Source: Candidatus Omnitrophota bacterium
Lineage (GTDB): Bacteria > Omnitrophota > Gorgyraeia > Aquiviventales > Aquiviventaceae
NCBI GenBank assembly: GCA_023247255.1
Contig: JAHFGV010000005.1
Coordinates: forward strand, 6,067-70,066
DNA length: 64,000 bases
Direction: 5' to 3'
Positions 30,635-62,532 of this stretch are shown here, piece by piece (position 1 is the stretch's first letter; the number at the start of each line of letters is the position of its first letter). The translations under genes and the position numbers were made by a program. The notes under the pieces were generated by a model. The model did no database searches, was not told the origin of the DNA, and saw only the letters and a program-made list of their open reading frames with translations.

Positions 30635-30638
30635 CCTG

Positions 30639-32995: not shown

Positions 32996-33032
32996 AATCT
33001 GCCATTTCCGGCTATGATATCTGCGGAGCATC

Positions 33033-43308: not shown

Positions 43309-43322
43309 ATGACTCCCGTCAT
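43309..43322. promoter_or_regulatory. Crp/Fnr-type dyad site 4
   Basis: CC-ATGAC-TCCC-GTCAT-GGAAGA. Flanks are identical to site 3. Confidence 0.5.
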
Positions 43323-43581
43323 GGAAGAGCCTAGAGCAGATGCTGTAGGCTTTGATGTGCAGATGGACACAGTGACGGTCCGTGAGAAAATTAAGCGGCT
43401 GAAGACTACTCGACAGGCGCTGAGCTGGTCCGAGGAGGTCTGTGCCTATCACCTGGGCGTGACGTACTCGACCTTGAACCGTTGGGAGCGCGGCGAGTCC
43501 TTGCCGAAGAGCCGCGCGGTGCTCAAAGCGATTGACCAGTTCATTGCCCGGCACAGCAAGGAACAAGTCGGAAGGAGGTAA
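43309..43581 (+). CDS. XRE-family helix-turn-helix protein
   Basis: HTH sequence [29 protein letters not shown]. The track ATG at 43309 is part of the dyad, so ATG 43363 is the more likely start. Confidence 0.55.
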
Positions 43582-43586: not shown

Positions 43587-43760
43587 ATGTTTGGGAATAT
43601 TGGGTTTCCAGAGCTGTTGGTGATTTTGTCGATCGTGCTCCTCCTCTTTGGGGCCAAGCGGCTGCCGGAGATTGCGCGTGGCTTGGGGAAGTCGCTCTCT
43701 GAATTCAAGAAGGGACTGAAGGAGATCGAGCACGACGTCAACGATGTCAAGAAGGTCTGA
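43587..43760 (+). CDS. tatA: twin-arginine translocase subunit TatA/E
   Basis: 57 aa, below the track cutoff. [42 protein letters not shown] lies upstream. Confidence 0.85.
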
Positions 43761-43766
43761 GCGAAG

Positions 43767-45365
43767 GTGGCGGCTCCGGTCAACCGGCCGATGACGGAAG
43801 CGTTGAGGATGCGTCTCGGTATGCTGATTGCGGTGGTTGCGCTAGGCTCAGGGTGCGCCAAGGAGCCATCCGCAACACTCTCGAGCGCGAAACCGTCTGT
43901 GACCCCGCAGATCGTTGAAATGGGCCGGCGGCTTTACAACAAGCAGTGCGCGGTCTGTCATGGCCCGAAGGGCGCGGGCGACGGCCAGGCAGCTTACCTC
44001 CTCTATCCTAAGCCGCGCGATTTCACACAAAACGAATTCCGACTTGTCTCGACCAGCACGATGCAGGCCACCGATGAAGATCTGTTTCTCACCATTACCC
44101 GTGGGACGCCCGGCTCCGCGATGCCCTCCTGGGAGACGCTGACGTCGGAGCAGCGCTGGGCGTTGGTGTATTACGTTCGCCACCTCACGGGTGCGAGCGA
44201 ATCCATTGATCCAGCCTCAATCATCCACGTCCCTCCAGAGACGCCGAAGACCCCCGAGAGCATCGCGCGTGGCCGCCAAATTTTTGTCCAGGCGTGCGCG
44301 TCCTGCCATGGGCCACAAGGCCGCGGTGATGGGCAGCAGGTCATGGCGGACAACGCCGGATATCCTATCAAGCCACGCGATCTCACCGCAGGCGTCTTTA
44401 AGGGGTCGTCTGAGAGCAACGATTTGTATTACCGAATTGTCGCTGGATTGCCGGGCAGCCCGATGCCAAGTTACGCTGACGTCTACACCGACGAGCAGTT
44501 GTGGGATCTCATCCACTACGTTCAATCGCTCGTACCGTCGGGAGTCGAGGATCGCGTCCGCATGCATGCACGGAGCATCCGCGCCCATCGGGTCAGAGGC
44601 GACATCCCATTAGAACCGACAGCGAAAATCTGGAGCACGAGACAACCGGTCTCTATCGCCCTCACACCATTGTGGTGGCGCGATCACCGAGTCGAAGGGG
44701 TCGAGGTCAAAGCGTTGCACAACGGCAAAGAGCTCGCGCTTCAATTGTCATGGAACGACCAGACGCGTGACAACTCGACCCTCACCCCGCAGGCGTTTTC
44801 CGATGGTGTCGCGGTAGAATTCTCCTTAGAACAGGACCCGCCGTTCTTTGGGATGGGTGACGCAAACGGAGTCGTGCAGATATGGCACTGGAAAGCCTCC
44901 TGGCAGGAGGACCTCAAGGGCTGGCAGGACGTGGAGACCGCCTACCCCAATGCTGCCGTGGATTGGTATCCCGCACAGCGTGACTATCAGCACGGTGAAC
45001 CCTCCGAGGTGAGCCAGTCGAGGACGGCCTCGCAGGACCCACGGTTCATGGGCGGATGGGGAGCGGGCAATCCCCTCTCCGATCCGAATCGAACGTCAGC
45101 GGCTGAGGAAGCGATGGCCAAGGGATTGGGGACGCTGACCTCACGCGCACCTTCGATGCAACGGATCCAAGCGGATGGTCTCTGGCAAGACGGTCGGTGG
45201 CAGGTCGTGCTGCATCGACCGCTTGCGCCCAACGAGGAGGGGGATCTGAGGCTGAAGCCTGGGCAGCAAGTCAGCGCGGCGTTTGCGATCTGGGATGGCC
45301 ATGCCGGGGATCGCAACGGCCAAAAGAGCGTGTCGATTTGGAACATCTTGGAGCTGGAGCGATAG
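43767..45365 (+). CDS. NxrC/EbdC-like gamma subunit candidate: lipoprotein with two class-I cytochrome c domains plus an EB_dh haem-b domain
   Basis: Lipobox VALGSGC. CAVCH and CASCH, each with a downstream MP(S). C-terminal EB_dh-like region FSDGVAVEF..FFGMG..VQIWHWKASW. GTG start, with ATG 43791 or 43809 as alternatives. Confidence 0.7.
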   Translation: MAAPVNRPMTEALRMRLGMLIAVVALGSGCAKEPSATLSSAKPSVTPQIVEMGRRLYNKQCAVCHGPKGAGDGQAAYLLYPKPRDFTQNEFRLVSTSTMQATDEDLFLTITRGTPGSAMPSWETLTSEQRWALVYYVRHLTGASESIDPASIIHVPPETPKTPESIARGRQIFVQACASCHGPQGRGDGQQVMADNAGYPIKPRDLTAGVFKGSSESNDLYYRIVAGLPGSPMPSYADVYTDEQLWDLIHYVQSLVPSGVEDRVRMHARSIRAHRVRGDIPLEPTAKIWSTRQPVSIALTPLWWRDHRVEGVEVKALHNGKELALQLSWNDQTRDNSTLTPQAFSDGVAVEFSLEQDPPFFGMGDANGVVQIWHWKASWQEDLKGWQDVETAYPNAAVDWYPAQRDYQHGEPSEVSQSRTASQDPRFMGGWGAGNPLSDPNRTSAAEEAMAKGLGTLTSRAPSMQRIQADGLWQDGRWQVVLHRPLAPNEEGDLRLKPGQQVSAAFAIWDGHAGDRNGQKSVSIWNILELER

Positions 45366-45367
45366 CC

Positions 45368-48300
45368 ATGTATCTGACGCGTCGTCAGTTTTTAAAACTC
45401 TCAGGAGCTACTGGAATCGGGTTGTATCTCGCCTCACGCGAGGTCTCGCTCTGGGCGCTGGAGCCGGTGAGCGAGATAGAGAATCCGCTCGCCTACTATC
45501 CTTCGCGAGACTGGGAGAAGCTCTACCGCGACCAGTACCGGTATGACAGCACCTTCTCCTGGGTCTGCTCGCCCAACGACACGCACGCCTGCCGGGTCCT
45601 GGCGTACGTGAGAAACGGCGTCGTGGTGCGTCTTGGCTCAGAGTACAACTATGAAACCTACGCCGACCTGTACGGAAACAAGGCCACTCCCAACTGGAAC
45701 CCGCGCCAGTGCGCCAAAGGTTTCACCTTTCATCGGCTCATCTACGGTCCTTACCGCTTGAAACATCCCATCATCCGTAACGGTTGGAAGCGCTGGGCCG
45801 ACGACGGATTCCCAACGCTGACCCCTGAGAAAAAGACACAATACAAGTTTGACTCGCGCGGCACAGACACTTTTGAAAAAATCAGTTGGGAGGATATCTA
45901 CGGCTACATTGCCCGCGGCCTCATCGCTATCGCTACGCGCTACAGCGGCGAGCCGGGCATAACACTCCTGCGCGCACAGGGCTATCCCGAGGAAATGATC
46001 CAAGCGATGGGTGGGGCCGGGACACGGACCTTGAAGTTCCGCGGCGGGATGGGCCTGCTTGGGGTGTTTGGCAAGTACGGCATGTACCGACTGGCGAACA
46101 CGATGGCGCTTCTCGATGTCCACCTGCGCGGTGTCAAGCCTGAGGAGGCGAAGGCCGGACGGACGTGGTCCAACTACACGTGGCACGGCGATCAGGCGCC
46201 GGGGCATCCCTGGGTGCATGGATTGCAGAACGCCGACTGCGATTTCAACGACCTTCGTTTTTCCAAGCTGATCATCCAGGACGGCAAGAACCTCTGCGAG
46301 AACAAGATGACCGACTCGCACTGGTTCATTGAATGTATGGAGCGTGGGGCAAAGCTGGTGACGATCGCGCCCGAATACAGCCCGCCGGCGTCGAAGTCGG
46401 ACTATTGGATTCCGATTCGCCCGCAGACCGATGCCGCGCTCTTCTTGGGTATCACGCGCCTCATGATCGACCGAGGCTGGTACGACCGGGAGTTTATCCT
46501 GAACTTCACCGACTTTCCGCTCTTGGTGCGAACCGACACCCTGCGGCGCCTTCGAGCGAATGAGATCCTGCCGGGCTACCAAGGGCAGTTGTCCAAGGAC
46601 GGCCCAAGCTACAAGCTCCAGGGATTGAAGGACGAGCAGTATGCCAAGTTGGGGGACTTCGTCGTCTGGGATGAATCCTCCGGAGCGCCCGCCGCAATCA
46701 CACGCGACGACGTCGGCAAGCGTCTCGTACAGAAAGGCGTCCACCCCGCGCTTGAAGGGACGTTTACACTCAACACGGTGGATGGGAAGCGTATTGAGGT
46801 GATGACGCTCTTTTCGCTCTATCAACTCCACCTCAAGGACTACGACCTTGATACCGTGCATGAGATCACTCGCGCGCCGAGAGAGCAGATCGAACAACTC
46901 GCGAAGGACATCGCCACTATCTCGCCAGTCGCGATCCACCAAGGCGAGGGCATCAACCACTACTTCCACGCCACCGAGGCCAATCGCGCCGCCTATCTGC
47001 CGCTGATGCTGACCGGCAACATCGGCCAACGCGGTGCTGGCTGCTACGGATGGGCCGGCAACTACAAGGCTGCGCTTTTCCAAGGCTCTCCATGGACCGG
47101 TCCGGGATTCAAAGGCTGGGTGGCCGAGGATCCGTTTGAGCCTAACCTTGACCCCAACGCGCACGGGAAAGACATCCACGCGCACGCCTACTTCAAGGAC
47201 GAAGAGCCGGCTTATTGGAACCACGGGGATAAGCCGCTGATCGTCGAGACGCCCAAGGGCGGCCGCAAGGTCTTCACCGGCAACACTCACATGCCCACAC
47301 CCACAAAGGCGATGCTTTTCACCAACGTGAACCTCATCAACAATGCCAAGTGGGTCTATGAGATGCTCAAGAACGTCAACCCGAATGTCGAGATGATCCT
47401 TTCTATCGACATCCAAATGACCGCTTCGATCGAATACGCGGACTTAGCACTGCCGGCGAATAGCTGGCTTGAGTTCGAGGGGCTGGAGGTTACGGCGTCA
47501 TGCTCCAACCCTTTCCTCCAGATCTGGAAGGGCGGGATTCCGCCTGTGTTCGACAGCCGGGATGATCTGGTGATTCTCGCCCAGATCGCCGAAGCGCTCG
47601 GCAAGGAAATCGGCGATACGCGCTGCAGCGACTACTGGAAGTTTGCGCTCGAGGGCAAGCGCGAAGTCTACATCCAGCGGCTGCTGGATTCCTGCACGAC
47701 GACGGTTGGCTATCGTCTGGAGGACATCATGGCGGGCAAGTACGGGCCGCCGGGGGCGGCACTCATGCTCTTTCGCACCTATCCCCGGATCCCCTTCTGG
47801 GAGCAGGTGCACGAGGACTTACCTTTCTACACCGACCACGGGAGGCTTTCGGCCTACACCGATGTGCCCGAGGCGATCGAGTACGGCGAGAATTTCATCG
47901 TCCACCGTGAAGGTGCGGAGGCGACACCCTACCTGCCGAACGTCATCGTCAGCAGCAACCCGTACATCCGCCCCAACGATTACGGTATTCCCTTATCGGC
48001 GGAGCACTGGGATGACCGCACGGTGCGCAACGTGAAGATGCCGTGGGATCAGGTCAAAGGCACAAAGAATTTCCTCTGGGAAAAGGGCTTTCAGTTTTAC
48101 TGTCTAACTCCCAAGAGCCGCCATCGCGTCCACTCGCTTTGGAGCAACGTGGACTGGCACCAAATCTGGGACTCCAACTTCGGCGATCCCTACCGGATGG
48201 ACAAACGCAGCCCTGGTGTTGGCGAACACCAGGTTCACATGAATCCCCAGGCGGCAAAGGATTTAGGGATCAATGACGGCGATTACGCCTATGTCGATGC

Positions 48301-48820
48301 GAATCCAGCAGATCGTCCCTACATTGGGGCGAAACCTGACGATCCGTTCTATCGGGTGGCGCGGCTGATGCTGCGTGTCAAGTACAACGCAGCCTACCCG
48401 TACAACGTCGTCATGATGAAGCACGGGACCTATATTGCCACCGAGAAATCTGTGAAGGCCCACGAGACGCGCAAGGATGGACGGGCCCTCTCCGCTGACA
48501 CCGGCTACCAGGCGAACTTCCGCTACGGGTCGCAGCAGAGTGTCACGCGCAACTGGCACATGCCGATGCACCAGACCGACTCACTCTTCCACAAGGCGAA
48601 GGTCTTCATGGGCTTTCTCTTCGGCGGCGAGGCGGACAATCACGCGGTCAACACGGTTCCGAAAGAGACGCTGGTGCGCGTGACGAAAGCGGAAGACGGC
48701 GGGTTGGGTGGCCAGGGCGTGTGGGCTCCGGCGACGACCGGCTATACCCCGGCCAACGAGAACGACACGATGAAGAAGTACCTCGAAGGCCGGTTCGTTG
48801 AGGAGAGCAAGAAATGGTAA
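45368..48820 (+). CDS. nxrA: periplasmic NxrA/NarG-type molybdopterin (bis-MGD) oxidoreductase alpha subunit
   Basis: ATG 45368, 1150 aa. TAT signal MYLTRRQFLKLSG. The N-terminal FeS region WVCSPNDTHACRV...RQCAKG resembles Nitrospira/anammox NxrA as I recall it. Confidence 0.85.
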   Translation: MYLTRRQFLKLSGATGIGLYLASREVSLWALEPVSEIENPLAYYPSRDWEKLYRDQYRYDSTFSWVCSPNDTHACRVLAYVRNGVVVRLGSEYNYETYADLYGNKATPNWNPRQCAKGFTFHRLIYGPYRLKHPIIRNGWKRWADDGFPTLTPEKKTQYKFDSRGTDTFEKISWEDIYGYIARGLIAIATRYSGEPGITLLRAQGYPEEMIQAMGGAGTRTLKFRGGMGLLGVFGKYGMYRLANTMALLDVHLRGVKPEEAKAGRTWSNYTWHGDQAPGHPWVHGLQNADCDFNDLRFSKLIIQDGKNLCENKMTDSHWFIECMERGAKLVTIAPEYSPPASKSDYWIPIRPQTDAALFLGITRLMIDRGWYDREFILNFTDFPLLVRTDTLRRLRANEILPGYQGQLSKDGPSYKLQGLKDEQYAKLGDFVVWDESSGAPAAITRDDVGKRLVQKGVHPALEGTFTLNTVDGKRIEVMTLFSLYQLHLKDYDLDTVHEITRAPREQIEQLAKDIATISPVAIHQGEGINHYFHATEANRAAYLPLMLTGNIGQRGAGCYGWAGNYKAALFQGSPWTGPGFKGWVAEDPFEPNLDPNAHGKDIHAHAYFKDEEPAYWNHGDKPLIVETPKGGRKVFTGNTHMPTPTKAMLFTNVNLINNAKWVYEMLKNVNPNVEMILSIDIQMTASIEYADLALPANSWLEFEGLEVTASCSNPFLQIWKGGIPPVFDSRDDLVILAQIAEALGKEIGDTRCSDYWKFALEGKREVYIQRLLDSCTTTVGYRLEDIMAGKYGPPGAALMLFRTYPRIPFWEQVHEDLPFYTDHGRLSAYTDVPEAIEYGENFIVHREGAEATPYLPNVIVSSNPYIRPNDYGIPLSAEHWDDRTVRNVKMPWDQVKGTKNFLWEKGFQFYCLTPKSRHRVHSLWSNVDWHQIWDSNFGDPYRMDKRSPGVGEHQVHMNPQAAKDLGINDGDYAYVDANPADRPYIGAKPDDPFYRVARLMLRVKYNAAYPYNVVMMKHGTYIATEKSVKAHETRKDGRALSADTGYQANFRYGSQQSVTRNWHMPMHQTDSLFHKAKVFMGFLFGGEADNHAVNTVPKETLVRVTKAEDGGLGGQGVWAPATTGYTPANENDTMKKYLEGRFVEESKKW

Positions 48821-49521
48821 ACGAGAGCCGCGCTTACCGCAATCGATGGAAATATCTATGTGCAGGGCTTACGAGCGTCATGCTCGTTCTAGGACTCACT
48901 CCAATGAGCTGGGCGAGGGATGATCTCCAGGTGTGGAATACCATCGAGCTCAGCAAGCGGCTCGGTCCACATTGGGAGGTGTTTTTCCTTCCGGAGATAC
49001 GGATACGCGATGATGCGGGCGAGTTCTTTTACCACGAGTACCGCCAGGGTGTGCGCTACAAGCCCTCCAAACACTGGCAACTCGGGCTCAATTACCTATT
49101 CGTTCGCAACGAGTCCTCCGGCAAACCGCTCGAGGAGCATACCGGCGAGCTCGACCTCACGCCTAAAACGACGCTAGGCCCCCTCGAGGTCTCTCTGCGA
49201 GGGCGGCTGGCGCTGCGGACCATTCAAGGCAGCACCGGCGAGCAGGAATGGCAGTTTCGAGTGATGCCGAAGGTCGCGTATCCGACCCAGTTCGTCGGTC
49301 ACAAGCTCATCCCCTACGCCGCCGATGATCTGTACTACGACTACACCCGCGACGCGTGGAACCAGAACCGGGTGTTCCTTGGTCTTGCCATCCCCATGGG
49401 CAAGGCGCTTGGCGCCGAGACGACGGTGGATGTCTACTACATGCTCCAGAGTCAACTCGGCAAACGGCACGACTGGAGCAGCAGCCACGTCCTGGGGACG
49501 AAACTGAGTGTCAGATTTTGA
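48814..49521 (+). CDS. small outer-membrane beta-barrel protein (DUF2490-like)
   Basis: 235 aa with a signal peptide (..TPMSWA) and amphipathic strand pattern. The C-terminal ..GTKLSVRF ends in Phe. Overlaps the nxrA stop (ATGGTAA). Confidence 0.5.
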   Translation: MVNESRAYRNRWKYLCAGLTSVMLVLGLTPMSWARDDLQVWNTIELSKRLGPHWEVFFLPEIRIRDDAGEFFYHEYRQGVRYKPSKHWQLGLNYLFVRNESSGKPLEEHTGELDLTPKTTLGPLEVSLRGRLALRTIQGSTGEQEWQFRVMPKVAYPTQFVGHKLIPYAADDLYYDYTRDAWNQNRVFLGLAIPMGKALGAETTVDVYYMLQSQLGKRHDWSSSHVLGTKLSVRF

Positions 49522-49541
49522 CGAGATGAGGCGTGTGAGCG

Positions 49542-49818
49542 ATGCCGTATAAGGAACCCGAACCGGATGATCCTTTGGAGCTGACGGGAGTCGTCCTACC
49601 TGCTTCGGACGAGACGTCACTGAAGGAAATGGCCGTGTGTTTCGTCGAAGAGTTCCTGCGCGACGGCTGGTCGGATGAGCAGCTTCGTGCGATGTTCCGC
49701 AATCCCTACTACCGAGGTCCCTACCTCGTGTGGCGGCAGAAGGGCGATGCATACGTGGAGGCTGTGATCCAGGAAGTCCGTCACATCTGGCGCCCCAACG
49801 CAGCCGGAGGAGCGACTC

Positions 49819-49826
<8 letters not shown>
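49542..49826 (+). CDS. hypothetical 94-aa protein
   Basis: Acidic N-terminus and W/Y-rich core, with no signal peptide. The stop overlaps the nxrB start by 8 nt, suggesting co-translation. Confidence 0.35.
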
Positions 49827-51057
<1,231 letters not shown>

Positions 51058-51087
51058 ATTTTGCTGCGCAACATTTATTAACCGGAT

Positions 51088-51867
51088 ATGAATCCTACGA
51101 TAAATCTTCCTTCGGAAAATTTAATTGAGGACCTGCTGGCGAGAAGCGCCGTCTATCATGCGCTGTCGCTGCTGCTGCGCCATCCAGACGCGGCCGCCAT
51201 GAAGTGGCTGTCGATGCGGGAATATCAGCGGCTGGCTGAGGTCGTGGAGATGCTGACGAAGGAACGAAAGGGATCATTGCACGAGGCTGTGCGGTATATG
51301 ATGACGGCGTTCGAGGGGGTGTCGATTGCGGAGTGGACCCGCGACTATGAACGGATCTTCGGACACTCGGTCCAGAGCGCGGCGCCACCCTATGAACTGG
51401 AGTACGGCGAGGAGCACAGCCATCGGCAGCCGCAGGAGCTGGGCGATATCGCGGCATTCTATCGAGCGTTCGGCCTTCGCGTGGCCTTTGCCTCGCATGA
51501 GCGGATCGATCATATCGTCACGGAGTGCGACTTCATGCAGTACCTGCTCTATAAGCAAGCCTGTGCACTTGATGAGGGGAGCGAGGAGCGGGCGGATGTG
51601 TGCGAAACGGCAGCCCAGCAGTTCCTCGCTGATCACCTCGGTCGCTGGGGTCCGGCCTTTGCCCTAAGACTCTCGCGAGCGGCTGAGCAGAGAGTCTTGG
51701 GAGCGCTTGCCGATACGACCCTGGCATGGCTGGTGCAGGATTGCGAGCGTATGCAGGTGCCTACCGGATCACGCGACCTCCCGCTGCGACTGCCCAAGGA
51801 ACGGGATGAGGTGGGATGCGCAGCGTGCGCACCTCAGCAGCTAGGAAATACTGATGGCAAGCGTTGA
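51088..51867 (+). CDS. TorD/NarJ-family redox enzyme maturation chaperone
   Basis: 259 aa with the pattern YHALSLLL...EYERIFG...PPYELEYG...DHI..ECDFMQYL. Confidence 0.7.
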   Translation: MNPTINLPSENLIEDLLARSAVYHALSLLLRHPDAAAMKWLSMREYQRLAEVVEMLTKERKGSLHEAVRYMMTAFEGVSIAEWTRDYERIFGHSVQSAAPPYELEYGEEHSHRQPQELGDIAAFYRAFGLRVAFASHERIDHIVTECDFMQYLLYKQACALDEGSEERADVCETAAQQFLADHLGRWGPAFALRLSRAAEQRVLGALADTTLAWLVQDCERMQVPTGSRDLPLRLPKERDEVGCAACAPQQLGNTDGKR

Positions 51868-52801
51868 TGTCCAGTTTGATCCAGCATTTGTGGAAGAGAC
51901 GGTTTTCCTTGAATTGAGGAACCGGGAAGCCCTCGGCAATTGCGCGATGGCGCAGGCGTTTCATGTACAGCGCAGCGCCCTCTATGACACCACGACCGCA
52001 ACAGGCGAGCGCGAGGCGCGATTTCAGCAGCTGGCAGCCCGCTATTTCCAGGAGCTTGGATTCTCCGAGCTCTTTGCGAAACGGTTCGAAGAGTTTCCGC
52101 TGATCGGAGCGCATGTTCCTGTTGCGCTGGTGCGACGCGCCTGGAGCCGCAAGGAAGAGCGCGTTGAGTTATACGTTCCCCCTACGCCCGGTGGGGGCTC
52201 AAGCCTCAAAGCTTTTCCGACGCTGTGGATCGGTTTTCAGGTCGCCCGGTGCTTAAATCGCGAGCAGCTCGTGGCGTTCCTGCGGCATGAGCTCATGCAC
52301 ATCTCTGATATGTTTGACCCGGCGTTCGGGTACCAACCGCATCCAGACTTCGGCGCGGAGTGTGAAACAGAAGAGGACCTAATCCGTAAGCGCTTCCGAT
52401 TGCTGTGGAACCTCGTTGTGGATGGGCGGATGCGCCGGAAGGGCTGGCCGGCCGTTGACCATGGAACGACACGTCTTCGGGAGTTTGAGCGGGCGTTTGC
52501 CTCCTGGGACCCGCAGCGCCGCGAGGCGGTGTGGCCGGATCTTGGCAACCGAGCATCCTGCACGCAACGTGAGCTCCTGGAACTGGCGAAGGACGAACGT
52601 CTCACCCGGATGCTGGGGCAAGGCGGCGTTCGCTGCCCCTTGTGCCATTTTCCGACGCGGGAGGGCGTGTGCGATTGGCGTGGCGAACGCGCGGCTGTTG
52701 CTGAAGCGATCCAAACGGATTACGCCTGGTGGGATCCGGTTCAGGGAGCATGCCGGCAGTGCTTCGAGTTGTATCGCGCAAGGCTACCGGTGATGGGATG
52801 A
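51854..52801 (+). CDS. hypothetical HExxH-motif protein with C-terminal Cys4 zinc ribbon
   Basis: 315 aa with LRHELMHISD (HExxH) and CPLCH..C..CRQC near the C-terminus. Overlaps both neighbouring genes. Confidence 0.45.
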   Translation: MASVDVQFDPAFVEETVFLELRNREALGNCAMAQAFHVQRSALYDTTTATGEREARFQQLAARYFQELGFSELFAKRFEEFPLIGAHVPVALVRRAWSRKEERVELYVPPTPGGGSSLKAFPTLWIGFQVARCLNREQLVAFLRHELMHISDMFDPAFGYQPHPDFGAECETEEDLIRKRFRLLWNLVVDGRMRRKGWPAVDHGTTRLREFERAFASWDPQRREAVWPDLGNRASCTQRELLELAKDERLTRMLGQGGVRCPLCHFPTREGVCDWRGERAAVAEAIQTDYAWWDPVQGACRQCFELYRARLPVMG

Positions 52802-53172
52802 CGCGCGAAGACGCAAATGCGACGAACGGCGAAATCAATCGGCGCACGTTTCTCGCCTCGGCGCCTCGGCACCTGCTGGACGGGCTGAGAGCGCTGATGA
52901 GCGATCTCAGAGGGCTCTCGCCGCCTGTCTTGGATGACCAGGCATGGCCGCTTCCTCGAAAGGTGGCGATGCTGGATGTCTCGCGGTGTCTCGCGTGGGG
53001 AGGAGGGGGCTGTCAGGTGTGTTATCTCCGGTGTCCCCTGCGTGAGCGTGCGATGGTGTTTGAGGATGGCAAACCAACGGTGGTGGCTTCCATGTGCGAC
53101 GGCTGTGGTGTCTGTGTCGAGGCGTGCGAAGCCGTCAATGACCTTGGAGCGATGACGCGTGTGAGTGTATGA
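52798..53172 (+). CDS. TAT-signal 4Fe-4S ferredoxin-like protein
   Basis: ATG 52798 overlaps the upstream stop. NRRTFLAS, then the Cys clusters CLAWGGGGCQVCYLRCP and CDGCGVCVEAC. Confidence 0.6.
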   Translation: MTREDANATNGEINRRTFLASAPRHLLDGLRALMSDLRGLSPPVLDDQAWPLPRKVAMLDVSRCLAWGGGGCQVCYLRCPLRERAMVFEDGKPTVVASMCDGCGVCVEACEAVNDLGAMTRVSV

Positions 53173-53182: not shown

Positions 53183-53347
53183 GGTTCTTTGGGGTGTGAT
53201 CGCGTAGGGTACGTGGTGGGATGACAATTCGAAACGACGCTCCGAGTTCAGCGACCTAAGCTCGCGTGATGGCGGGGATGGTCCCTGAACCCCTGTCCCA
53301 CACGCAACGCCGCGTGTAGGACCGGGCCGGGAAGGAAACGACTCGGC

Positions 53348-53432
53348 CTCCTCGTGTTCGGAAAGGAGACGGCAGGCTGGAGTATCGTCAAGCCAGCTTC
53401 TCTTTCCACACGAGGAGCTGGCTTGTTTCGTC
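53348..53432 (+). promoter_or_regulatory. leader RNA with alternative stems (attenuator or riboswitch candidate)
   Basis: Stem CTCCTCGTGT (53348-57) / ACACGAGGAG (53408-17) competes with the terminator-like stem AAGCCAGCT (53390-98) / AGCTGGCTT (53416-24), which is followed by GTTTCGT. Confidence 0.3.
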
Positions 53433-53888: not shown

Positions 53889-54875
53889 GTGATGGGCGCA
53901 CTCTGCGATCGGTTTGGCCGTCGCATCGAGTACCTGCGCATCTCGGTGACGGATCGGTGTAACCTCCGCTGCATCTATTGCCTGCCGGCGTGCGGAATCA
54001 AGTGGCTGCCGCGCGAGGAGATCCTGCGGTTTGAGGAGATCCGGGAAATCGTTCGCGTTGGGATAGCCCTGGGACTCACCCATGTGCGGCTGACCGGCGG
54101 CGAGCCACTCATCCGCGAAGGCCTTGCCGAGCTCGTCCAGATGCTCGCGGCGATCCCACACCTCGAAGACCTCTCCTTGAGTACGAACGGGGTGTTGCTC
54201 TCGCGAGACGCGAGGACGCTTGCGCGCGCCGGCCTTCGGCGCGTCAACATCAGCCTCGACACGCTAAAGGCTGAGCGGTTTCATGCCATCACGCGCTTCG
54301 GCGCGGTGTCCGATGTCCAGGCGGGGATTGAAGCTGCCTTGGAAGTGGGGCTTGATCCGGTCAAGCTCAATGTCGTGGTCATGCGCGGAATCAACGACGA
54401 TGAACTCGTTGAACTGGGTCGCCTCACAATCGATCGACCACTCCATGTGCGCTTTATCGAGCTGATGCCCATCGGGGATTTCTTCTCACGGGAGCGCCTG
54501 GTGCCGTCCGAGGAAATCCTCGCGTGTCTGGGCGCGTTGGGTGAGCTGTGGCCGAGTAGTGGCCCAGGTGGTTGCGGCCCGGCGAGAACGTTTGCGTTGG
54601 ACAAAGCGCAGGGAACCATCGGCATCATCGGGGCGGTAACGCAGGCCTTCTGTGCGCAGTGCAATCGGCTTCGGCTGACGGCAACCGGCCAGTTGCGGCC
54701 GTGTCTTGATGATACCGCAGCGGTTGATCTCAAACCCGCGCTGCGCCCCGCGATTGATCCCGGGCGGCTCGCTGAGTTGGTGCAACAGGCCGTAGAAGCA
54801 AAACCAGAGCAGCACAGCATGGCGCAACGGGATGCGGGGACCCCCCGCTTCTGCATGGCGGGAGTCGGCGGATGA
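53889..54875 (+). CDS. moaA: GTP 3',8-cyclase (radical SAM)
   Basis: LRISVTDRCNLRCIYC radical-SAM motif and C-terminal CAQCNRLRLTATGQLRPC. The start is GTG 53889 or ATG 53892. Confidence 0.9.
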   Translation: MMGALCDRFGRRIEYLRISVTDRCNLRCIYCLPACGIKWLPREEILRFEEIREIVRVGIALGLTHVRLTGGEPLIREGLAELVQMLAAIPHLEDLSLSTNGVLLSRDARTLARAGLRRVNISLDTLKAERFHAITRFGAVSDVQAGIEAALEVGLDPVKLNVVVMRGINDDELVELGRLTIDRPLHVRFIELMPIGDFFSRERLVPSEEILACLGALGELWPSSGPGGCGPARTFALDKAQGTIGIIGAVTQAFCAQCNRLRLTATGQLRPCLDDTAAVDLKPALRPAIDPGRLAELVQQAVEAKPEQHSMAQRDAGTPRFCMAGVGG

Positions 54876-55348
54876 AGATGGTTTCGACGCAGCGTCGACA
54901 CAACGCGCAGGTGCGCATGGCGGATGTAAGCGCGAAGTCCCCAATCCTCCGGACGGCGGTGGCGCGGTGTGAACTGGTGATGAAGCCAAGGACGCTGGCG
55001 ACCATTAAGGCGGGCAAACTGCCAAAGGGCGATGTATGGCCGGTCGCCCAGGTCGCGGGGATTCTGGCGACGAAGCGAACGGCCGAGCTCATCCCCCTGT
55101 GCCATCCAATTTCAATCAACCATGTCACCTTGCGTCAGGAATTGAATGGGCGATGTGTGACAATTGAAGCTGAGGTCACCACGACGGCGCCCACAGGCCC
55201 GGAAATGGAAGCCCTGACGGCGGCGGCCGTCGCGGCGCTTACGGTCTACGACATGTGCAAAGTCATCGAACGGGGCATCGTGATTCGACAGCTGTATCTG
55301 GTGAGCAAGTCAGGTGGTAAGAGCGGCACGTGGAGGCGACATCAGTAA
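54872..55348 (+). CDS. moaC: cyclic pyranopterin monophosphate synthase
   Basis: 158 aa with KGDVWPVAQVAGILATKRTAELIPLCHP. Confidence 0.9.
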   Translation: MKMVSTQRRHNAQVRMADVSAKSPILRTAVARCELVMKPRTLATIKAGKLPKGDVWPVAQVAGILATKRTAELIPLCHPISINHVTLRQELNGRCVTIEAEVTTTAPTGPEMEALTAAAVAALTVYDMCKVIERGIVIRQLYLVSKSGGKSGTWRRHQ

Positions 55349-55584
55349 TGTGGTCACGCTGTTGGTGGGCGACCTGGGTGTCAGGGTTCTTCGGGATCGC
55401 CGGTGTCTTGCATGTGGCGAGGTTCTTCTTCCGCGTTCCCGTGCGGGTCGGGACGTATGATGTCCCGCTCAGGGTCAGCGTGCTGGTTGGCGTGGTGTTC
55501 GTCAGCATCTCAGCGGGGTTGCTCTGGATCGAGGTCCAGCGTGAGCGAACCAAGCGTCGCTCAGTGGGAGAACAGAAGGCGTAA
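55330..55584 (+). CDS. hypothetical small membrane protein
   Basis: Two hydrophobic segments and a basic tail. The start is uncertain (55330 or 55348). Confidence 0.3.
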   Translation: MEATSVMWSRCWWATWVSGFFGIAGVLHVARFFFRVPVRVGTYDVPLRVSVLVGVVFVSISAGLLWIEVQRERTKRRSVGEQKA

Positions 55585-55585
55585 G

Positions 55586-56068
55586 ATGACGTGGGAGGTG
55601 GGGATTCTGACCGTCAGCGACACGCGCTCTCAAGGCATCCGGGCAGACACGGCGACAGCGCTCATCCGCCAACTCTTGGAGAAGGCCGGGTTTGCGGTGT
55701 GCGAGACCCTCCTGGTTCCAGATGATGTCCGGCAGATTCAAGAGCTGCTCATCGACTTCGCCGATCGGCGGAAGCTTCCACTCGTTATCACAACCGGGGG
55801 GACAGGCTTTGGGCCACGCGACGTGACCCCGGAGGCGACGTGTCGTGTGATCGAACGCGAGGTGCCGGGTTTGCCTGAAGCGATGCGAGTGGCCACGGCA
55901 GAACGAAATCCTCTAGCTTGGTTATCACGTGGCGTGGCGGGACTGCGAGGCCGCACCCTGATCGTCAATCTCCCAGGTAATCCCGATGGCGCAATGGAGT
56001 GCTTAGAGGCGCTCCTGCCGCTATTGCCGCATGCACTTGAGATGGTCAACGGATGCGCTCATGGGTGA
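55586..56068 (+). CDS. moaB: MoaB/Mog-family molybdopterin adenylyltransferase
   Basis: ATG 55586 with ILTVSDT and ITTGGTGFGPRDVTPEA. Confidence 0.85.
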   Translation: MTWEVGILTVSDTRSQGIRADTATALIRQLLEKAGFAVCETLLVPDDVRQIQELLIDFADRRKLPLVITTGGTGFGPRDVTPEATCRVIEREVPGLPEAMRVATAERNPLAWLSRGVAGLRGRTLIVNLPGNPDGAMECLEALLPLLPHALEMVNGCAHG

Positions 56069-56705
56069 CCATCAGCACCACGCGCAGACCATTCGGCACT
56101 TTGGGCACCTGGCCGCCCACTACGACCATCGGCATCGGCACTATAACCAGGTGACCTTGAGCCGGGCGGTGGAAGCGCTAAAGCTCTCTCCGGCGGGATG
56201 TGTGCTCGACGTGGGGTGTGGGACCGGGGAGCTGATGCGGCTCGTGCAGAGTCACCATCCGCAGGCAACCCTCGTCGGGATCGGTGTGACGCCTGAGATG
56301 ATTGCGGTCACACGGGAGAAATTTCAGCACGTGCCTCGGGTGAGGTTGTGCCTCGCGGAAGCCGAGGCGCTGCCGTTTGCTGCGGAAAGTTTCGAGGCGG
56401 TCGTCTCCTGTAACATGTTGCATCATGTGCACGCGATCGACCAGTTGTTTCGCGAATGTGCGCGGGTCCTGCGACCCCAGGGTCAATTGGTCGTTGTCGA
56501 CTGGTCCCGGGACTTCTGGCACTGCCAGCTGGCCCACTACTGTCTCCGTCTTGTCAAGCGTAGCTACGTGAAGATGTACCGCGCGTCCGAACTCGTCAAG
56601 CTCGCTGCGCCGCTTGGCCTAGCCGTGGAGGATGTCAGCCGGTTCTTCGTGCCACCCTATTTCGGGATGATGCGGGTGGTGGCCACAAGGCAGGAGACGC
56701 CTTGA
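56061..56705 (+). CDS. class I SAM-dependent methyltransferase
   Basis: ATG 56061. Motif I VLDVGCGTGEL and a His-rich N-terminus. Confidence 0.7.
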   Translation: MGDHQHHAQTIRHFGHLAAHYDHRHRHYNQVTLSRAVEALKLSPAGCVLDVGCGTGELMRLVQSHHPQATLVGIGVTPEMIAVTREKFQHVPRVRLCLAEAEALPFAAESFEAVVSCNMLHHVHAIDQLFRECARVLRPQGQLVVVDWSRDFWHCQLAHYCLRLVKRSYVKMYRASELVKLAAPLGLAVEDVSRFFVPPYFGMMRVVATRQETP

Positions 56706-56706
56706 G

Positions 56707-57440
56707 ATGGACGGCCTGTGGTGGCTTGTCCCTGTGTTTTTTGTGATTGCCCTGGCATACGCTTCGGTGGGGCACGGGGGCGCATCGGGGTATCTGGCGG
56801 CGCTGTCGTTTTTCGCCTTCTGTCCGGATGAAATGGCCACGACGGCGCTCACGTTGAATCTCTTCGTAGCTGGCATAGCCCTGATGAGCTTTGCGCGGGC
56901 AGGCCATTTTGTCGGCCGACTCACGTGGCCGTTTGTCGTCGCGTCGGTCCCAGCCGCTTTTCTGGGAGGGCTCATCCCTGTGTCGGTTCGCTTCTATCAG
57001 GTGCTGCTCGCGATCGCCTTGGGCGTGGCGGCGGTCCGTCTTTCCCTGGATCTCCGTGGCCGAGAAGAGGGTCGTGTCGTGAGGCCCAGCTTGGCGCTCG
57101 CGTTGCCGACCGGCGGCGGAATCGGGTGGCTCTCGGGAGTAGTCGGCGTAGGAGGAGGGATTTTCCTGAGCCCCTTTCTGCTGTTATTGCGCTGGGCTAC
57201 CCCAAAGCAGACAGCCGCCGCTTCAGCCGCGTTCATCCTCATCAATTCAGCCGCCGGTCTTTGCGGGCGGTCAGATCCGGCCTTGAGTATGGAACCCTGT
57301 GGCCGTTGCTCGCAGCCGCCCTGATCGGTGGATGGGTTGGCGCACACCTGGGCGCGAACCATTTCTCTGGACAGATACTAAAACGGCTCCTGGCGGTCAT
57401 ACTTCTCATCGCAGCTGCCAAGTTGCTTATCAGCCAATGA
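56707..57440 (+). pseudogene. TauE/SafE (DUF81) family membrane transporter, frameshifted
   Basis: The two track ORFs (56707..57324, 56925..57440) join as ..INSAAGLCG / AVRSGLEYGTLWPLL.. across a G-run at 57265-57267. GGASGY and GVGGGIF motifs are present. Confidence 0.6.
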
Positions 57441-58690: not shown

Positions 58691-59172
58691 TGGCGCTCGT
58701 GGTGAGTATCTATGGCCCGTCAGGCAGCGGTAAGACGACGCTGATCGAACGTTTGATCCCTCGGCTTGTGGCACGTGGCCTCAAGATCGGTGTGATCAAG
58801 CATACTCACCACGGCCTTACGGTGGATCCTCAAGGGAAGGATAGCTGGCGAATATGGCAGGCTGGCGCGCAGGCGGTGCTTCTGGCTGCGCCACAGGAAA
58901 TTCTACTGAGGCAGCGGAGTTCGGAACCTTCCTTTGGCAGCGCACTGGCACTGATGCCCGGTGATCTGGATTGCATTTTTGTCGAGGGGTTTGCAGGTGA
59001 CACCACAGCACCGCAAGCGAATGTGCAATTACGGCTGGCCGTTTCTCATGAGGGTGTGTGGCTCAACGGGAGGCAGCGATCTCGCGATGATCTTGCCGCT
59101 GTTGAAGAAGCCATCATTGAGTTGATGAAGGGTTCTACGGGTGCCGACCTGATCAGAATGATGCAGGGATGA
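58690..59172 (+). CDS. mobB: molybdopterin-guanine dinucleotide biosynthesis adaptor MobB
   Basis: P-loop GPSGSGKTT followed by GVIKHTHHG. Confidence 0.85.
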   Translation: MALVVSIYGPSGSGKTTLIERLIPRLVARGLKIGVIKHTHHGLTVDPQGKDSWRIWQAGAQAVLLAAPQEILLRQRSSEPSFGSALALMPGDLDCIFVEGFAGDTTAPQANVQLRLAVSHEGVWLNGRQRSRDDLAAVEEAIIELMKGSTGADLIRMMQG

Positions 59173-62482: not shown

Positions 62483-62532
62483 GGTCAGGGCCAACGGCGA
62501 TGGAGACAATCTTTCCGAGAGGAGGATCTTAC

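What the first reader, a model, noticed from the sequence alone, without database searches (positions are those of the whole stretch)
43587..53172. Non-canonical periplasmic NXR/NAR-type molybdoenzyme cluster
The gene order is tatA, then a dihaem-c::EB_dh lipoprotein, then a TAT-signal alpha subunit (1150 aa). Next come a small outer-membrane-type barrel, a 94-aa protein and the beta subunit. A NarJ/TorD-like chaperone, an HExxH/zinc-ribbon protein and a TAT-signal ferredoxin complete the cluster. The alpha and beta sequences recall the periplasmic Nitrospira/anammox NXR lineage of type II DMSO reductases (for example, beta begins MPKVFNWQLGREMSYPYEE..MWWNNVETKPYGGYP). The accessory set differs from the narGHJI, nxrABC and ebd/ser/clr/ddh operons I know. 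The alpha and beta genes are not adjacent, no membrane-anchor NarI is present, and a dedicated tatA precedes the cluster. The substrate (nitrite oxidation, nitrate reduction or another oxyanion) cannot be read from the sequence.
Basis: partly seen in the sequence, partly recalled or inferred. Interest (0 to 1): 0.8.

Follow-up and report, generated by a model that had tools for sequence, protein, structure and literature searches.

The report
Periplasmic nitrite/nitrate oxidoreductase (NXR) operon
This is a real operon for a periplasmic molybdenum enzyme that interconverts nitrite and nitrate, closely related to the solved anammox NXR; its gene layout looks unusual but is standard for a large group of uncultured bacteria, so it is a new member of a known kind.

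Summary
All nine genes exist as described, on the + strand at 43587-53172, packed tightly like one operon. The alpha subunit is 65.5% identical, essentially without gaps, to the crystallised Kuenenia NxrA (PDB 7B04). It keeps the Mo ligand Asp275, the substrate residue Asn70 and the unusual 3Cys/1Asp FS0 ligands. Beta matches NxrB at E 8e-187. The dihaem-c::EB_dh protein is an NxrC with conserved Met/Lys haem b ligands, fused to a c4-like dihaem domain behind a lipoprotein signal.

The order c-NxrC, alpha, p94, beta, NarJ, 315-aa Zn-ribbon protein recurs in nearly all of 80 species-level genomes from more than 10 phyla. The closest are labelled Omnitrophota. One relative at 92% identity has the identical order, including DUF2490. 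NarJ and the Zn-ribbon protein also lie between nxrB and nxrA in an anammox cluster.

DUF2490 is limited to this narrow sub-lineage. tatA, the TAT ferredoxin and a Moco-riboswitch-controlled moa operon go with the Omnitrophota-labelled clusters. p94 and the Zn-ribbon protein have no known family or fold. The physiological direction, nitrite oxidation or nitrate respiration, cannot be read from the sequence. Published metagenome surveys already report such genes in these phyla.

The parts
43309..43581 (+). XRE/HTH_31 regulator 5 nt upstream of tatA. It is possibly the first gene of the unit.
   Evidence: PF13560 E 1e-6. An HTH gene precedes tatA in L004, L038, L084 and L086.
43587..43760 (+). 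tatA (57 aa), the pore-forming component of the TAT translocase.
   Evidence: TIGR01411, 72 bits against a cut-off of 53.9. It is linked to NXR clusters in most Omnitrophota-labelled loci, either upstream or downstream, and was not seen in the other phyla.
43767..45365 (+). Gamma subunit: a putative lipoprotein with a c4-like dihaem cytochrome c domain fused to an NxrC-type EB_dh haem b domain.
   Evidence: Pfam Cytochrom_C x2 plus EB_dh. Residues 47-257 match PDB 6H5L_B (E 5e-49). Residues 309-532 match NXR-C 7B04_C (E 4e-30), with the Met (GMGD) and Lys (NGQK) haem b ligands aligned. Two CxxCH motifs. Lipobox ...VALGSGC.
45368..48820 (+). NxrA catalytic Mo-bisPGD subunit (1150 aa) with the twin-arginine signal TRRQFLK.
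   Evidence: 7B04_B, 1848 bits over the full length. 65.5% identity, with C67, N70, D71, C75, C115 and D275 conserved. These residues are invariant in 83 of 83 relatives.
48814..49521 (+). DUF2490 protein (235 aa) with a signal peptide, probably an outer-membrane barrel. This insertion is specific to the window's narrow sub-lineage.
   Evidence: PF10677 E 2e-24. Its start overlaps the nxrA stop by 7 nt. It is found only in L084 (85% identical) and in none of the other 85 related loci.
49542..49826 (+). p94, a small cytoplasmic protein of unknown family that always lies between alpha and beta in the non-anammox clusters.
   Evidence: Present in 76 of 80 loci. No Pfam, PDB-sequence or fold match. 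The AF2 model is a three-helix bundle (residues 24-83) with a disordered N-terminal tail that carries a conserved motif.
49819..51057 (+). NxrB iron-sulfur subunit (412 aa) with no signal peptide. It is presumably exported together with NxrA.
   Evidence: 7B04_A E 8e-187. 65.6% identical to anammox NxrB. The Cys motifs fit three [4Fe-4S] clusters plus one [3Fe-4S] cluster.
51088..51867 (+). NarJ/TorD-type chaperone for Moco insertion and TAT proofreading.
   Evidence: PF02613 E 1e-19. TIGR03482 E 2e-22, below its cut-off. Homologous to the anammox-cluster chaperone, E 2e-39.
51854..52801 (+). 315-aa cytoplasmic Cys4 zinc-ribbon protein. It carries HELMH here, but that motif is not conserved in the family. 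It is presumed to be a maturation factor.
   Evidence: Follows NarJ in 56 of 80 loci. Homologue in the anammox cluster, E 5e-39. The four Cys are invariant and the first His is variable. 777 representative clusters in the 50%-identity library. No Pfam or PDB match.
52798..53172 (+). Small 2x[4Fe-4S]-type ferredoxin with an RR motif (INRRTFLAS).
   Evidence: Fer4_10 E 4e-6. Weak NapG and RnfB hits below their cut-offs. Sequence. Homologues occur only in Omnitrophota-labelled loci.
53228..53385 (+). Moco riboswitch. It marks the 3' boundary of the NXR operon and controls the downstream moa genes.
   Evidence: RF01055, 61.6 bits against a gathering score of 36, E 2e-12. It sits in the same position in 7 of 7 related loci.
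53889..59172 (+). Molybdenum cofactor genes: moaA, moaC, moaB/mog, a methyltransferase, TauE, moeA and mobB.
   Evidence: Pfam annotations of the called genes.
59814..61435 (+). tatC (59814-60644) and a mobA-like gene (60488-61435).
   Evidence: PF00902 E 2e-64 and PF12804 E 3e-34.
62500..63255 (+). CarboxypepD_reg-domain protein, homologous to the gene next to nxrA in anammox clusters (by position, the kustd1699 equivalent).
   Evidence: 35-37% identical, E 2e-29 and 5e-26, to the genes flanking nxrA in L082 (Kuenenia MAG) and L083. It recurs near the cluster in 7 further loci.
30062..34550 (+). Rieske protein, cytochrome b and two multihaem c subunits. This is a likely membrane redox partner.
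   Evidence: Pfam hits. Haem motif counts. The same block lies directly upstream of tatA-NXR in L085.

Best explanation
The cluster encodes a periplasmic, TAT-exported nitrite:nitrate oxidoreductase of the anammox/Nitrospina/Nitrospira type, together with its assembly machinery.

Shown by sequence comparison: NxrA carries Mo-bisPGD, FS0 with 3Cys/1Asp ligands, Asn70 and Asp275. NxrB has Cys motifs for three [4Fe-4S] clusters and one [3Fe-4S] cluster. The gamma subunit is an NxrC haem b domain (Met/Lys ligands) fused to two c haems behind a lipoprotein signal.

Inferred assembly:
1. NarJ holds apo-NxrA in the cytoplasm until Moco is inserted. Moco comes from the adjacent riboswitch-controlled moa/moe/mob genes.
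2. p94 and the Zn-ribbon protein have no signal peptides and keep fixed positions, so they probably assist maturation in the cytoplasm.
3. Folded NxrAB leaves through TatA/TatC on NxrA's RR signal.
4. The gamma subunit leaves through Sec, receives its c haems from ResB/CcsA (36270-39709), and tethers the complex to the membrane by a lipid anchor in place of NarI.

Inferred catalysis: NO2- + H2O <-> NO3- + 2H+ + 2e-. Electrons run Mo - FS0 - FS1 to FS4 - haem b - two haems c, then to periplasmic cytochromes or the Rieske/cytochrome b complex.

The enzyme is probably reversible, like the Kuenenia enzyme. I lean slightly towards nitrite oxidation as the physiological direction. My confidence in the enzyme identity is about 0.9. 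The 0.5 given here covers identity plus the nitrite-oxidising direction.
For: - Alpha matches 7B04_B over its full length (1848 bits). It is 65.5% identical without real gaps, and all six functional residues named in PMC8387239 sit at the same numbering. They are invariant in 83 relatives.
- Beta matches 7B04_A at E 8e-187 and has the expected Cys motifs.
- The EB_dh domain matches 7B04_C with the Met/Lys ligands aligned. The paper links that ligation to a high haem potential.
- NarJ, the Zn-ribbon protein and the kustd1699-like protein have homologues in anammox NXR clusters.
- The RR signal on alpha, tatA and tatC are present.
- ResB/CcsA, the Rieske/cytochrome b block and multihaem cytochromes lie upstream. 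L085 has the same block directly next to its cluster.
- The Moco riboswitch and moa operon lie downstream.
- By published identities, the window's NxrA is as close to Kuenenia's as Scalindua's is (66%), and closer than those of the nitrite oxidisers (about 60-62%). These all oxidise nitrite in vivo (PMC8387239, PMC3578206).
Against: - No activity, expression or whole-genome data were available. The window holds no terminal oxidase and no CO2-fixation genes.
- The Kuenenia enzyme reduces nitrate about 25 times faster than it oxidises nitrite in vitro with artificial partners.
- The cassette occurs in many lineages that are unlikely to be lithoautotrophic nitrite oxidisers. Speth 2016 makes this point for an Armatimonadetes genome.
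- OP3 (Omnitrophica) genes classed as narG by read assignment dominate even in anoxic sediment layers. I did not show that those are this NXR-type gene.
- The wider clade also contains the nitrate reducers Methanoperedens and Thermogutta.
- The roles given to p94, the Zn-ribbon protein, DUF2490 and the ferredoxin rest on position and predicted location only.
Confidence: 0.5

Rival explanations
1. It is the same enzyme and architecture, but the organism uses it as a periplasmic respiratory nitrate reductase. Quinol would feed the Rieske/cytochrome b complex, then c-type cytochromes, then the c2-NxrC subunit, NxrB and NxrA, which reduces nitrate.
For: - A Rieske/cytochrome b plus multihaem block lies next to the cluster here and in L085. 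A Crp/Fnr regulator and a hemerythrin gene sit just upstream of the cytochrome genes.
- Kuenenia NXR reduces nitrate faster than it oxidises nitrite in vitro.
- OP3 genomes were described as carrying a respiratory nitrate reductase, and OP3 reads classed as narG dominate in anoxic sediment.
- The cassette is spread among probable heterotrophs in more than 10 phyla.
- Nitrate reducers occur in the wider clade.
Against: - Every biochemically or physiologically studied enzyme at 60% identity or more oxidises nitrite in vivo.
- Thermogutta's NarG is described as a deep lineage, and its G and H genes are adjacent.
- Met/Lys haem b ligation and c4-type haems point to high-potential carriers. That is expected for accepting electrons from nitrite, although it is also compatible with nitrate reduction.
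Confidence: 0.4
2. It is a type II DMSO-reductase-family enzyme for another substrate, such as chlorate, perchlorate, selenate, dimethylsulfide or a hydrocarbon, that merely resembles NXR.
For: - The general type II family models hit alpha, beta and the chaperone (TIGR03479, TIGR03478, TIGR03482).
- Having a soluble EB_dh-type gamma subunit and no NarI is the architecture of the Ebd, Ser, Clr and Ddh enzymes.
Against: - Those hits fall far below the family cut-offs (341 bits against 985 for alpha).
- Identity to PcrA-type and EbdA structures is far lower than to NxrA (185 and 160 bits against 1848).
- The substrate-coordinating Asn70, which is Ile in EbdA, and the 3Cys/1Asp FS0 ligands are conserved.
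Confidence: 0.07
3. It is a horizontally acquired cassette that is not functional in this organism.
For: - The alpha tree does not follow the phylum labels of the genomes, and the genes flanking the cassette differ between phyla.
- A transposase gene lies at 21135-22136.
- One nearby cytochrome gene is frameshifted in this assembly.
Against: - All nine ORFs are intact, tightly spaced and at the GC content of the surrounding DNA.
- The cluster is embedded among cofactor-synthesis, TAT and cytochrome-maturation genes, and this arrangement is shared with relatives at 84-92% identity.
- Every catalytic residue is intact.
Confidence: 0.03

Closest known systems
Kuenenia stuttgartiensis NXR (PDB 7B04; gene cluster kustd1699-1713)
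   Same: - NxrA is 65.5% identical and NxrB about 66% identical (the beta figure is against a relative whose NxrA is 85% identical to Kuenenia's).
- The NxrC domain is homologous and keeps the Met/Lys haem ligands.
- The FS0 ligands (3Cys/1Asp), Asn70, Asp275 and the TAT signal are the same.
- Alpha and beta are not adjacent.
- A NarJ/TorD chaperone, a roughly 315-aa Zn-ribbon protein and a CarboxypepD_reg protein are shared.
   Different: - The gene order in the anammox locus is C-B-J-X-A, against cC-A-(DUF2490)-p94-B-J-X here.
- NxrC here is fused to a dihaem c domain and has a lipoprotein signal.
- p94, DUF2490, the TAT ferredoxin and tatA have no counterpart in the anammox locus.
- The anammox-cluster Usp and 495-aa multihaem proteins have no homologue in the window. 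Its 191-aa cytochrome c gives only a weak, generic match to the dihaem domain. I could not test NXR-T (kustd1705) itself.
- No anammoxosome or tubule context applies here.
Nitrospira / Nitrospina periplasmic NXR (nxrAB(C) operons)
   Same: - It is the same enzyme lineage with a periplasmic orientation.
- A TorD-like chaperone is present.
- 'Alternative NxrC' proteins with c-haem sites plus an EB_dh domain, and a zinc-finger protein, are described among the conserved NXR-linked genes (PMC3578206).
   Different: - In Nitrospina nxrA, nxrB and nxrC form one operon, and in Nitrospira, from my own knowledge, nxrA and nxrB are adjacent.
- The accessory genes there are scattered rather than in one cassette.
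- Published identities to Kuenenia NxrA are lower (about 55-62%).
- I could not fetch their sequences, so neither the absence of p94 nor their tree position was tested directly.
Uncharacterised NXR-like clusters in Omnitrophota, Methylomirabilota, Binatia, Acidobacteriota, Planctomycetota and other metagenome-assembled genomes
   Same: - The six-gene order is identical.
- Alpha is 72-92% identical.
- L084 matches gene for gene.
- Surveys already report these as a putative Nxr, and OP3 genomes as carrying a nitrate reductase (PMC10732223, PMC11265455, PMC5552932, PMC4821891).
   Different: Nothing essential differs. DUF2490 occurs only in the window and L084. tatA, the ferredoxin and the riboswitch-moa linkage occur only in the Omnitrophota-labelled loci.
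Soluble periplasmic type II DMSO reductases (EbdABCD, SerABCD, ClrABDC, DdhABDC, PcrABCD)
   Same: - They share the alpha-beta-gamma(EB_dh haem b)-chaperone architecture.
- Alpha has a TAT signal and there is no NarI anchor.
- Electrons are exchanged with c-type cytochromes.
   Different: - Similarity is much lower (160-185 bits against 1848).
- The alpha and beta genes are adjacent in those operons (own knowledge).
- They have no c-haem fusion, no p94 and no Zn-ribbon protein.
- FS0 has a His ligand in EbdA, and Ile replaces Asn70.
NarGHJI membrane-bound nitrate reductase
   Same: It catalyses the same reaction, and its catalytic, Fe-S and chaperone subunits are homologous.
   Different: - It faces the cytoplasm and has the NarI dihaem b anchor.
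- FS0 has 3Cys/1His ligands.
- The narG model scores 130 bits against a cut-off of 1084.

Membership tests
Periplasmic NXR (anammox/Nitrospina/Nitrospira type) | Full-length NxrA homologue close to a biochemically characterised NXR-A | tested here: met
   65.5% identity over 1145 residues to 7B04_B, 1848 bits.
Periplasmic NXR (anammox/Nitrospina/Nitrospira type) | Twin-arginine signal on alpha, giving a periplasmic orientation | tested here: met
   MYLTRRQFLKLSG... Weak hits to the TAT_signal models. tatA and tatC lie in the window. Export itself was not tested.
Periplasmic NXR (anammox/Nitrospina/Nitrospira type) | Mo ligand Asp275, substrate residue Asn70, and FS0 ligands Cys67, Asp71, Cys75 and Cys115 | tested here: met
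   All six are present at the same numbering and are invariant in 83 relatives. The residue list comes from PMC8387239.
Periplasmic NXR (anammox/Nitrospina/Nitrospira type) | NxrB with three [4Fe-4S] clusters and one [3Fe-4S] cluster | tested here: met
   7B04_A E 8e-187. Four Cys groups, including CxxYxxCxxxCP.
Periplasmic NXR (anammox/Nitrospina/Nitrospira type) | EB_dh-type haem b gamma subunit with Met/Lys ligation | tested here: met
   The C-terminal domain matches 7B04_C at E 4e-30, and the positions of Met155 and Lys305 are conserved. Here the domain is fused to two c haems.
Periplasmic NXR (anammox/Nitrospina/Nitrospira type) | Catalyses nitrite oxidation in vivo | not testable with these tools
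   This needs enzyme assays, isotope tracing or expression data.
Anammox nxr gene cluster (kustd1699-1713 layout) | Same gene order and the anammox-specific partners (NXR-T, Usp, multihaem cytochromes, bd-like oxidase) | tested here: not met
   The order differs (C-B-J-X-A in L083). The Usp and 495-aa multihaem genes of L083 have no homologue in the window, and the 191-aa cytochrome c gives only a weak generic match.
Conserved six-gene NXR cassette of uncultured lineages (c-NxrC, A, p94, B, NarJ, Zn-ribbon protein) | All six genes present, on one strand, in that order | tested here: met
   The same order is seen in nearly all of the 80 loci where the contig allows. L068 and L079 are rearranged. 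L084 is identical to the window, including the extra genes.
NarGHJI respiratory nitrate reductase | NarI membrane anchor, cytoplasmic alpha, and a score above the narG model cut-off | tested here: not met
   No NarI gene is in the cluster. Alpha has an RR signal. TIGR01580 scores 130 bits against a cut-off of 1084.
Ebd/Ser/Clr/Ddh/Pcr-type type II DMSO reductases | Score above the TIGR03479 / ebdA family cut-offs | tested here: not met
   341 bits against 985, and 168 against 2000. Asn70 is kept, where EbdA has Ile.
HExxH zinc metallopeptidases (for the 315-aa protein) | Both His and the Glu of HExxH conserved across the family | tested here: not met
   The first His is replaced in 14 of the 38 aligned members. 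Only Glu146, Asp152 and the four Cys are invariant or nearly so. No peptidase family hit reaches significance.

The most novel reading that the evidence does not exclude
The widespread cassette may define a distinct, functionally uncharacterised NXR subclass: a lipid-anchored complex with a fused haem b / dihaem c gamma subunit, two cassette-specific assembly factors of unknown fold (p94 and the Zn-ribbon protein) and, in this lineage, an operon-encoded outer-membrane DUF2490 barrel. Bacteria outside the recognised nitrite-oxidiser guilds, here an Omnitrophota-like one, would use it for nitrite oxidation with oxygen or another acceptor. That would make them a hidden nitrate-producing guild in groundwater and sediments.
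Probability: 0.2. Interest if true: 0.7.

Novelty: new member of a known kind. Interest (0 to 1): 0.35.

Why it matters
NXR is the only known biological source of nitrate. This family is very abundant in metagenomes: more than 2,400 90%-identity clusters scored E <= 1e-50, and 590 relatives turned up in species-representative genomes. If the cassette oxidises nitrite in Omnitrophota, Binatia, Acidobacteriota, Planctomycetota and similar groups, nitrification budgets and the marker-gene practice of calling 'nxrA' versus 'narG' would need revising. If it reduces nitrate instead, many metagenomic 'nitrite oxidiser' calls are wrong. The locus also offers two conserved, unstudied proteins, p94 and the Zn-ribbon protein (by position the kustd1701 equivalent), as candidates for NXR maturation factors. 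The locus itself does not change current understanding.

Tried and rejected
- p94 and the 315-aa protein gave nothing significant against Pfam, either per member or for the window proteins.
- They also gave nothing against NCBIfam or in PDB profile searches.
- The Foldseek-PDB search with the p94 model had a best E of 3. The afdb50 library was not available.
- Single-sequence AlphaFold of the 315-aa protein was unusable, with pLDDT 37. Sequences taken from the fetched loci could not be used for its alignment.
- I rejected the idea that the 315-aa protein is an HExxH metallopeptidase, because the motif is not conserved.
- The promoter and terminator scan found no more sites than shuffled sequence.
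- A Pfam census of the genes downstream of the cassette in 83 flanking ORFs found no recurrent partner outside the Omnitrophota-labelled loci.
The Omnitrophota assignment rests on best hits and shared flanking genes only.
- I recalled that the Methylomirabilis oxyfera Nar belonged here. PMC10732223 places that NarG in the other, Nar/Nitrobacter clade, so I dropped it.
- I could not fetch Nitrospira, Nitrospina, Scalindua, Methanoperedens or Thermogutta sequences. The tree is a neighbour-joining tree of fetched loci plus Kuenenia, without those references.

Full report

Yes.

- tatA, 43587-43760.
- A 532-aa protein with two CxxCH cytochrome c domains and a C-terminal EB_dh domain, 43767-45365.
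- A 1150-aa molybdopterin subunit with the signal TRRQFLK. Its start is 45368, two bases after the preceding stop.
- A DUF2490 protein, 48814-49521.
- A 94-aa ORF with no family, 49542-49826.
- A four-cluster ferredoxin subunit that begins MPKVFNWQLGREMSYPYEE, 49819-51057.
- A NarJ/TorD-family protein, 51088-51867.
- A 315-aa protein with HELMH and two CxxC pairs, 51854-52801.
- A small ferredoxin with INRRTFLAS. The public gene call starts it at 52798.

The genes overlap or are separated by at most 30 nt. GC content matches the surrounding DNA. The N-terminus of the 532-aa protein (MRLGMLIAVVALGSGC) fits the lipoprotein signal rule as I recall it. Close relatives keep a Cys at that place, but only about 26 of 65 homologues do.

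**2. What is it?**

- *Alpha.* It matches the crystallised Kuenenia stuttgartiensis NXR-A (7B04_B) over its whole length at 1848 bits. The next best solved structures are the perchlorate-reductase-type enzyme at 185 bits and EbdA at 160 bits. I rebuilt the Kuenenia sequence from the printed alignments and measured 65.5% identity over 1145 residues with essentially no gaps. All residues singled out in the structure paper sit at identical numbering: FS0 ligands Cys67, Asp71, Cys75 and Cys115, substrate-coordinating Asn70, and Mo ligand Asp275. They are invariant in 83 related sequences.
- *Beta.* It matches NXR-B at E 8e-187. Its cysteine groups fit three [4Fe-4S] clusters and one [3Fe-4S] cluster.
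- *Gamma.* The EB_dh domain matches NXR-C at E 4e-30, and the Met and Lys haem b ligands are aligned. The N-terminal dihaem domain matches PDB 6H5L chain B at E 5e-49.

NCBIfam models for narG, ebdA and the general type II family all score far below their cut-offs. This is therefore a periplasmic NXR-type enzyme. It is not a NarGHI enzyme or an Ebd/Ser/Clr-type enzyme.

**3. Is the gene order unusual?**

It is unusual only against textbook operons. A scan of one genome per species found 590 loci that encode relatives. I kept the best 80. They are labelled Omnitrophota (the closest, at 79-87%), Methylomirabilota, Binatia, Acidobacteriota, Planctomycetota/Phycisphaerae, Verrucomicrobiia, Gemmatimonadota, Sumerlaeota, Hydrogenedentota, Eiseniibacteriota, Nitrospinota and others, at 72-76%.

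Mapping the window's proteins onto these loci shows the order c-NxrC, alpha, p94, beta, NarJ, 315-aa protein in nearly all of them, wherever the contig is long enough. L068 and L079 are rearranged. A metagenomic contig whose alpha is 92% identical has exactly the window's order: HTH, tatA, c-NxrC, alpha, DUF2490, p94, beta, NarJ, 315-aa protein, ferredoxin, moaA and onward. Relatives at 88% and 90% lack DUF2490, and one of them has an unrelated 117-aa gene at that site. DUF2490 is thus a recent insertion in a narrow sub-lineage, at a variable spot between alpha and p94.

tatA, the TAT ferredoxin and the moa genes accompany the cluster only in Omnitrophota-labelled loci. Outside those loci the genes downstream of the cassette are heterogeneous. 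The six-gene cassette therefore behaves as the unit that moves between genomes.

**4. How does it relate to the characterised anammox cluster?**

In Kuenenia, nxrA is kustd1700 and nxrB is kustd1703. Two 'unknown' or 'hypothetical' genes lie between them, and kustd1699 next to nxrA is abundant at the protein level (PMC6423088). I fetched an anammox-type locus, L083, whose NxrA is 85% identical to Kuenenia's. Its order is NxrC, NxrB, TorD-like protein, 317-aa protein, NxrA, CarboxypepD_reg protein.

The window's NarJ and 315-aa proteins are full-length homologues of the two intervening proteins (E 2e-39 and 5e-39). The window's ORF at 62500-63255 is homologous to the protein in the kustd1699 position (E 2e-29). 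That last protein recurs near the cassette in seven other loci.

Separation of alpha from beta, the chaperone and the Zn-ribbon protein are therefore shared with the best-studied NXR. Lücker et al. had also listed a zinc-finger protein, a TorD-like chaperone and 'alternative NxrC' proteins with c-haem sites plus the haem b domain among the genes conserved with NXR (PMC3578206). In contrast, p94, DUF2490, the ferredoxin and tatA have no counterpart in the anammox locus.

A neighbour-joining tree rooted on a 43-44% paralogue puts the anammox NxrA as sister to the multi-phylum radiation. The window sits inside the Omnitrophota-labelled clade. Reference sequences from Nitrospira and Nitrospina could not be fetched. 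From published identities, the window's protein (65.5%) is as close to Kuenenia's as Scalindua's is (66%), and closer than those of the nitrite oxidisers (about 60-62%).

**5. The accessory proteins**

- *p94.* It is present in 76 of the 80 loci and has no Pfam, PDB-sequence or fold match. An AlphaFold model built on 33 close homologues gives a confident three-helix bundle (residues 24-83, pLDDT above 90). In front of it lies a disordered tail that carries the conserved motif EPDPxDPxELxGV.
- *The 315-aa protein.* Its family has 777 representative clusters in a library of 1.84 billion proteins. In an alignment of 38 members the four cysteines are invariant, along with E14, D152, F158, R180 and W185, and E146 is nearly invariant. 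The first His of 'HExxH' is replaced in 14 of the 38. I therefore read it as a Cys4 zinc-ribbon protein and not as a metallopeptidase.

Both proteins lack signal peptides and keep fixed positions next to the chaperone or between the catalytic genes. I infer cytoplasmic roles in maturation, without direct evidence.

**6. Genomic context**

- Upstream lie a Crp/Fnr regulator, a hemerythrin gene, hemA, several multihaem cytochromes with 6-9 CxxCH motifs, a Rieske protein, cytochrome b, ResB/CcsA and FeoB with a DtxR-type regulator. Further upstream are complex I subunits and an F-type ATP synthase.
- The Rieske/cytochrome b/multihaem block sits directly in front of tatA-NXR in the 88% relative.
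- Downstream, a Moco riboswitch at 53228-53385 (61.6 bits, E 2e-12) precedes moaA, moaC, moaB, moeA and mobB. After these come tatC and a mobA-like gene.
- The riboswitch occupies the same position in all seven related loci I tested.

The region is a respiratory island that brings the enzyme together with its export, haem-attachment and cofactor-supply genes.

**7. Mechanism and direction**

The electron path is inferred by homology to the Kuenenia structure: Mo, FS0, FS1 to FS4, haem b, then two c haems. The lipoprotein signal would give membrane tethering without NarI.

Kuenenia NXR works in both directions in vitro, so the sequence cannot fix the direction.

For nitrite oxidation:
- The nearest studied enzymes oxidise nitrite in vivo.
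- The haem ligation is linked to a high potential.

For nitrate respiration:
- A Rieske/cytochrome b complex is linked to the cluster.
- The cassette is common in probable heterotrophs and in lineages typical of anoxic habitats.
- Earlier papers describe OP3 genomes as carrying a respiratory nitrate reductase.
- Nitrate reducers occur in the wider clade.

I put enzyme identity at about 0.9. For direction I estimate roughly 0.5 nitrite oxidation, 0.4 nitrate reduction, and the remainder other readings.

**8. Novelty**

NXR-type genes in Omnitrophota, Planctomycetota, Desulfobacterota and similar groups have already been reported from metagenomes, with the direction left open (PMC10732223, PMC11265455, PMC5552932, PMC4821891). 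The locus is a new member of a known kind.

I did not find the following described in the papers I searched:
- conservation of the six-gene cassette with p94;
- homology of the cassette's Zn-ribbon protein with the gene that sits in the kustd1701 position of an anammox cluster;
- the Omnitrophota-specific layout of NXR operon, Moco riboswitch and moa operon;
- the DUF2490 insertion.

These are modest additions and not a new system.

Noticed in passing
window 53228-53385 (+): A Moco (molybdenum cofactor) riboswitch, RF01055, 61.6 bits, E 2e-12. It lies between the last NXR-operon gene and moaA. The same element sits in the same position in 7 of 7 related Omnitrophota-type loci. A 93-aa ORF with no family (53451-53732) lies between the riboswitch and moaA.
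   Followed up: yes
window 62500-63255 (+): A CarboxypepD_reg-domain protein homologous (35-37% identical, E 2e-29) to the gene next to nxrA in anammox clusters. By position that gene is the kustd1699 equivalent, which is abundant in the Kuenenia proteome. It recurs near the NXR cassette in L007, L008, L021, L022, L038, L061 and L077. Its function is unknown.
   Followed up: partly
window 26853-35944 (+): A block of multihaem cytochromes c (8, 9, 6 and 7 CxxCH motifs), a Rieske protein (30062-30634), cytochrome b (30639-31709) and a 686-aa secreted protein with no Pfam hit (28131-30191). It resembles the Rieske/cytochrome b complexes with multihaem subunits known from anammox bacteria. In L085 it is syntenic with the NXR cluster.
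   Followed up: partly
window about 35940-36183 (+): The multihaem-cytochrome b561 fusion gene (34628-35944, 438 aa) is cut short by a frameshift. The otherwise matching ENA contig L081 calls a 518-aa product. This is either an assembly error or a pseudogene.
   Followed up: partly
window 19140-23842: Two tRNA genes (19140-19213 and 23769-23842) bracket an alpha/beta-hydrolase gene, a DDE_Tnp_4 transposase (21135-22136) and a 177-aa ORF with no family. This may be a small insertion between the ATP synthase region and the cytochrome/NXR island.
   Followed up: no
window 24117-25761 (+): A Crp/Fnr-type regulator and a hemerythrin-domain protein lie immediately upstream of hemA and the cytochrome genes. 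They are candidate O2/NO-responsive regulators of the respiratory island.
   Followed up: no
L086 6188-7903: In the 90% relative, a ferredoxin-type nitrite/sulfite reductase gene (NIR_SIR domains) lies between the DtxR-type regulator and HTH-tatA-NXR. That links the cluster to cytoplasmic nitrite assimilation in that genome.
   Followed up: no
L026 16608-21305: One Methylomirabilota contig carries a second, divergent alpha/beta pair (43% and 50% identical) directly downstream of the cassette. I used the alpha copy as the outgroup. Its type is unknown.
   Followed up: no
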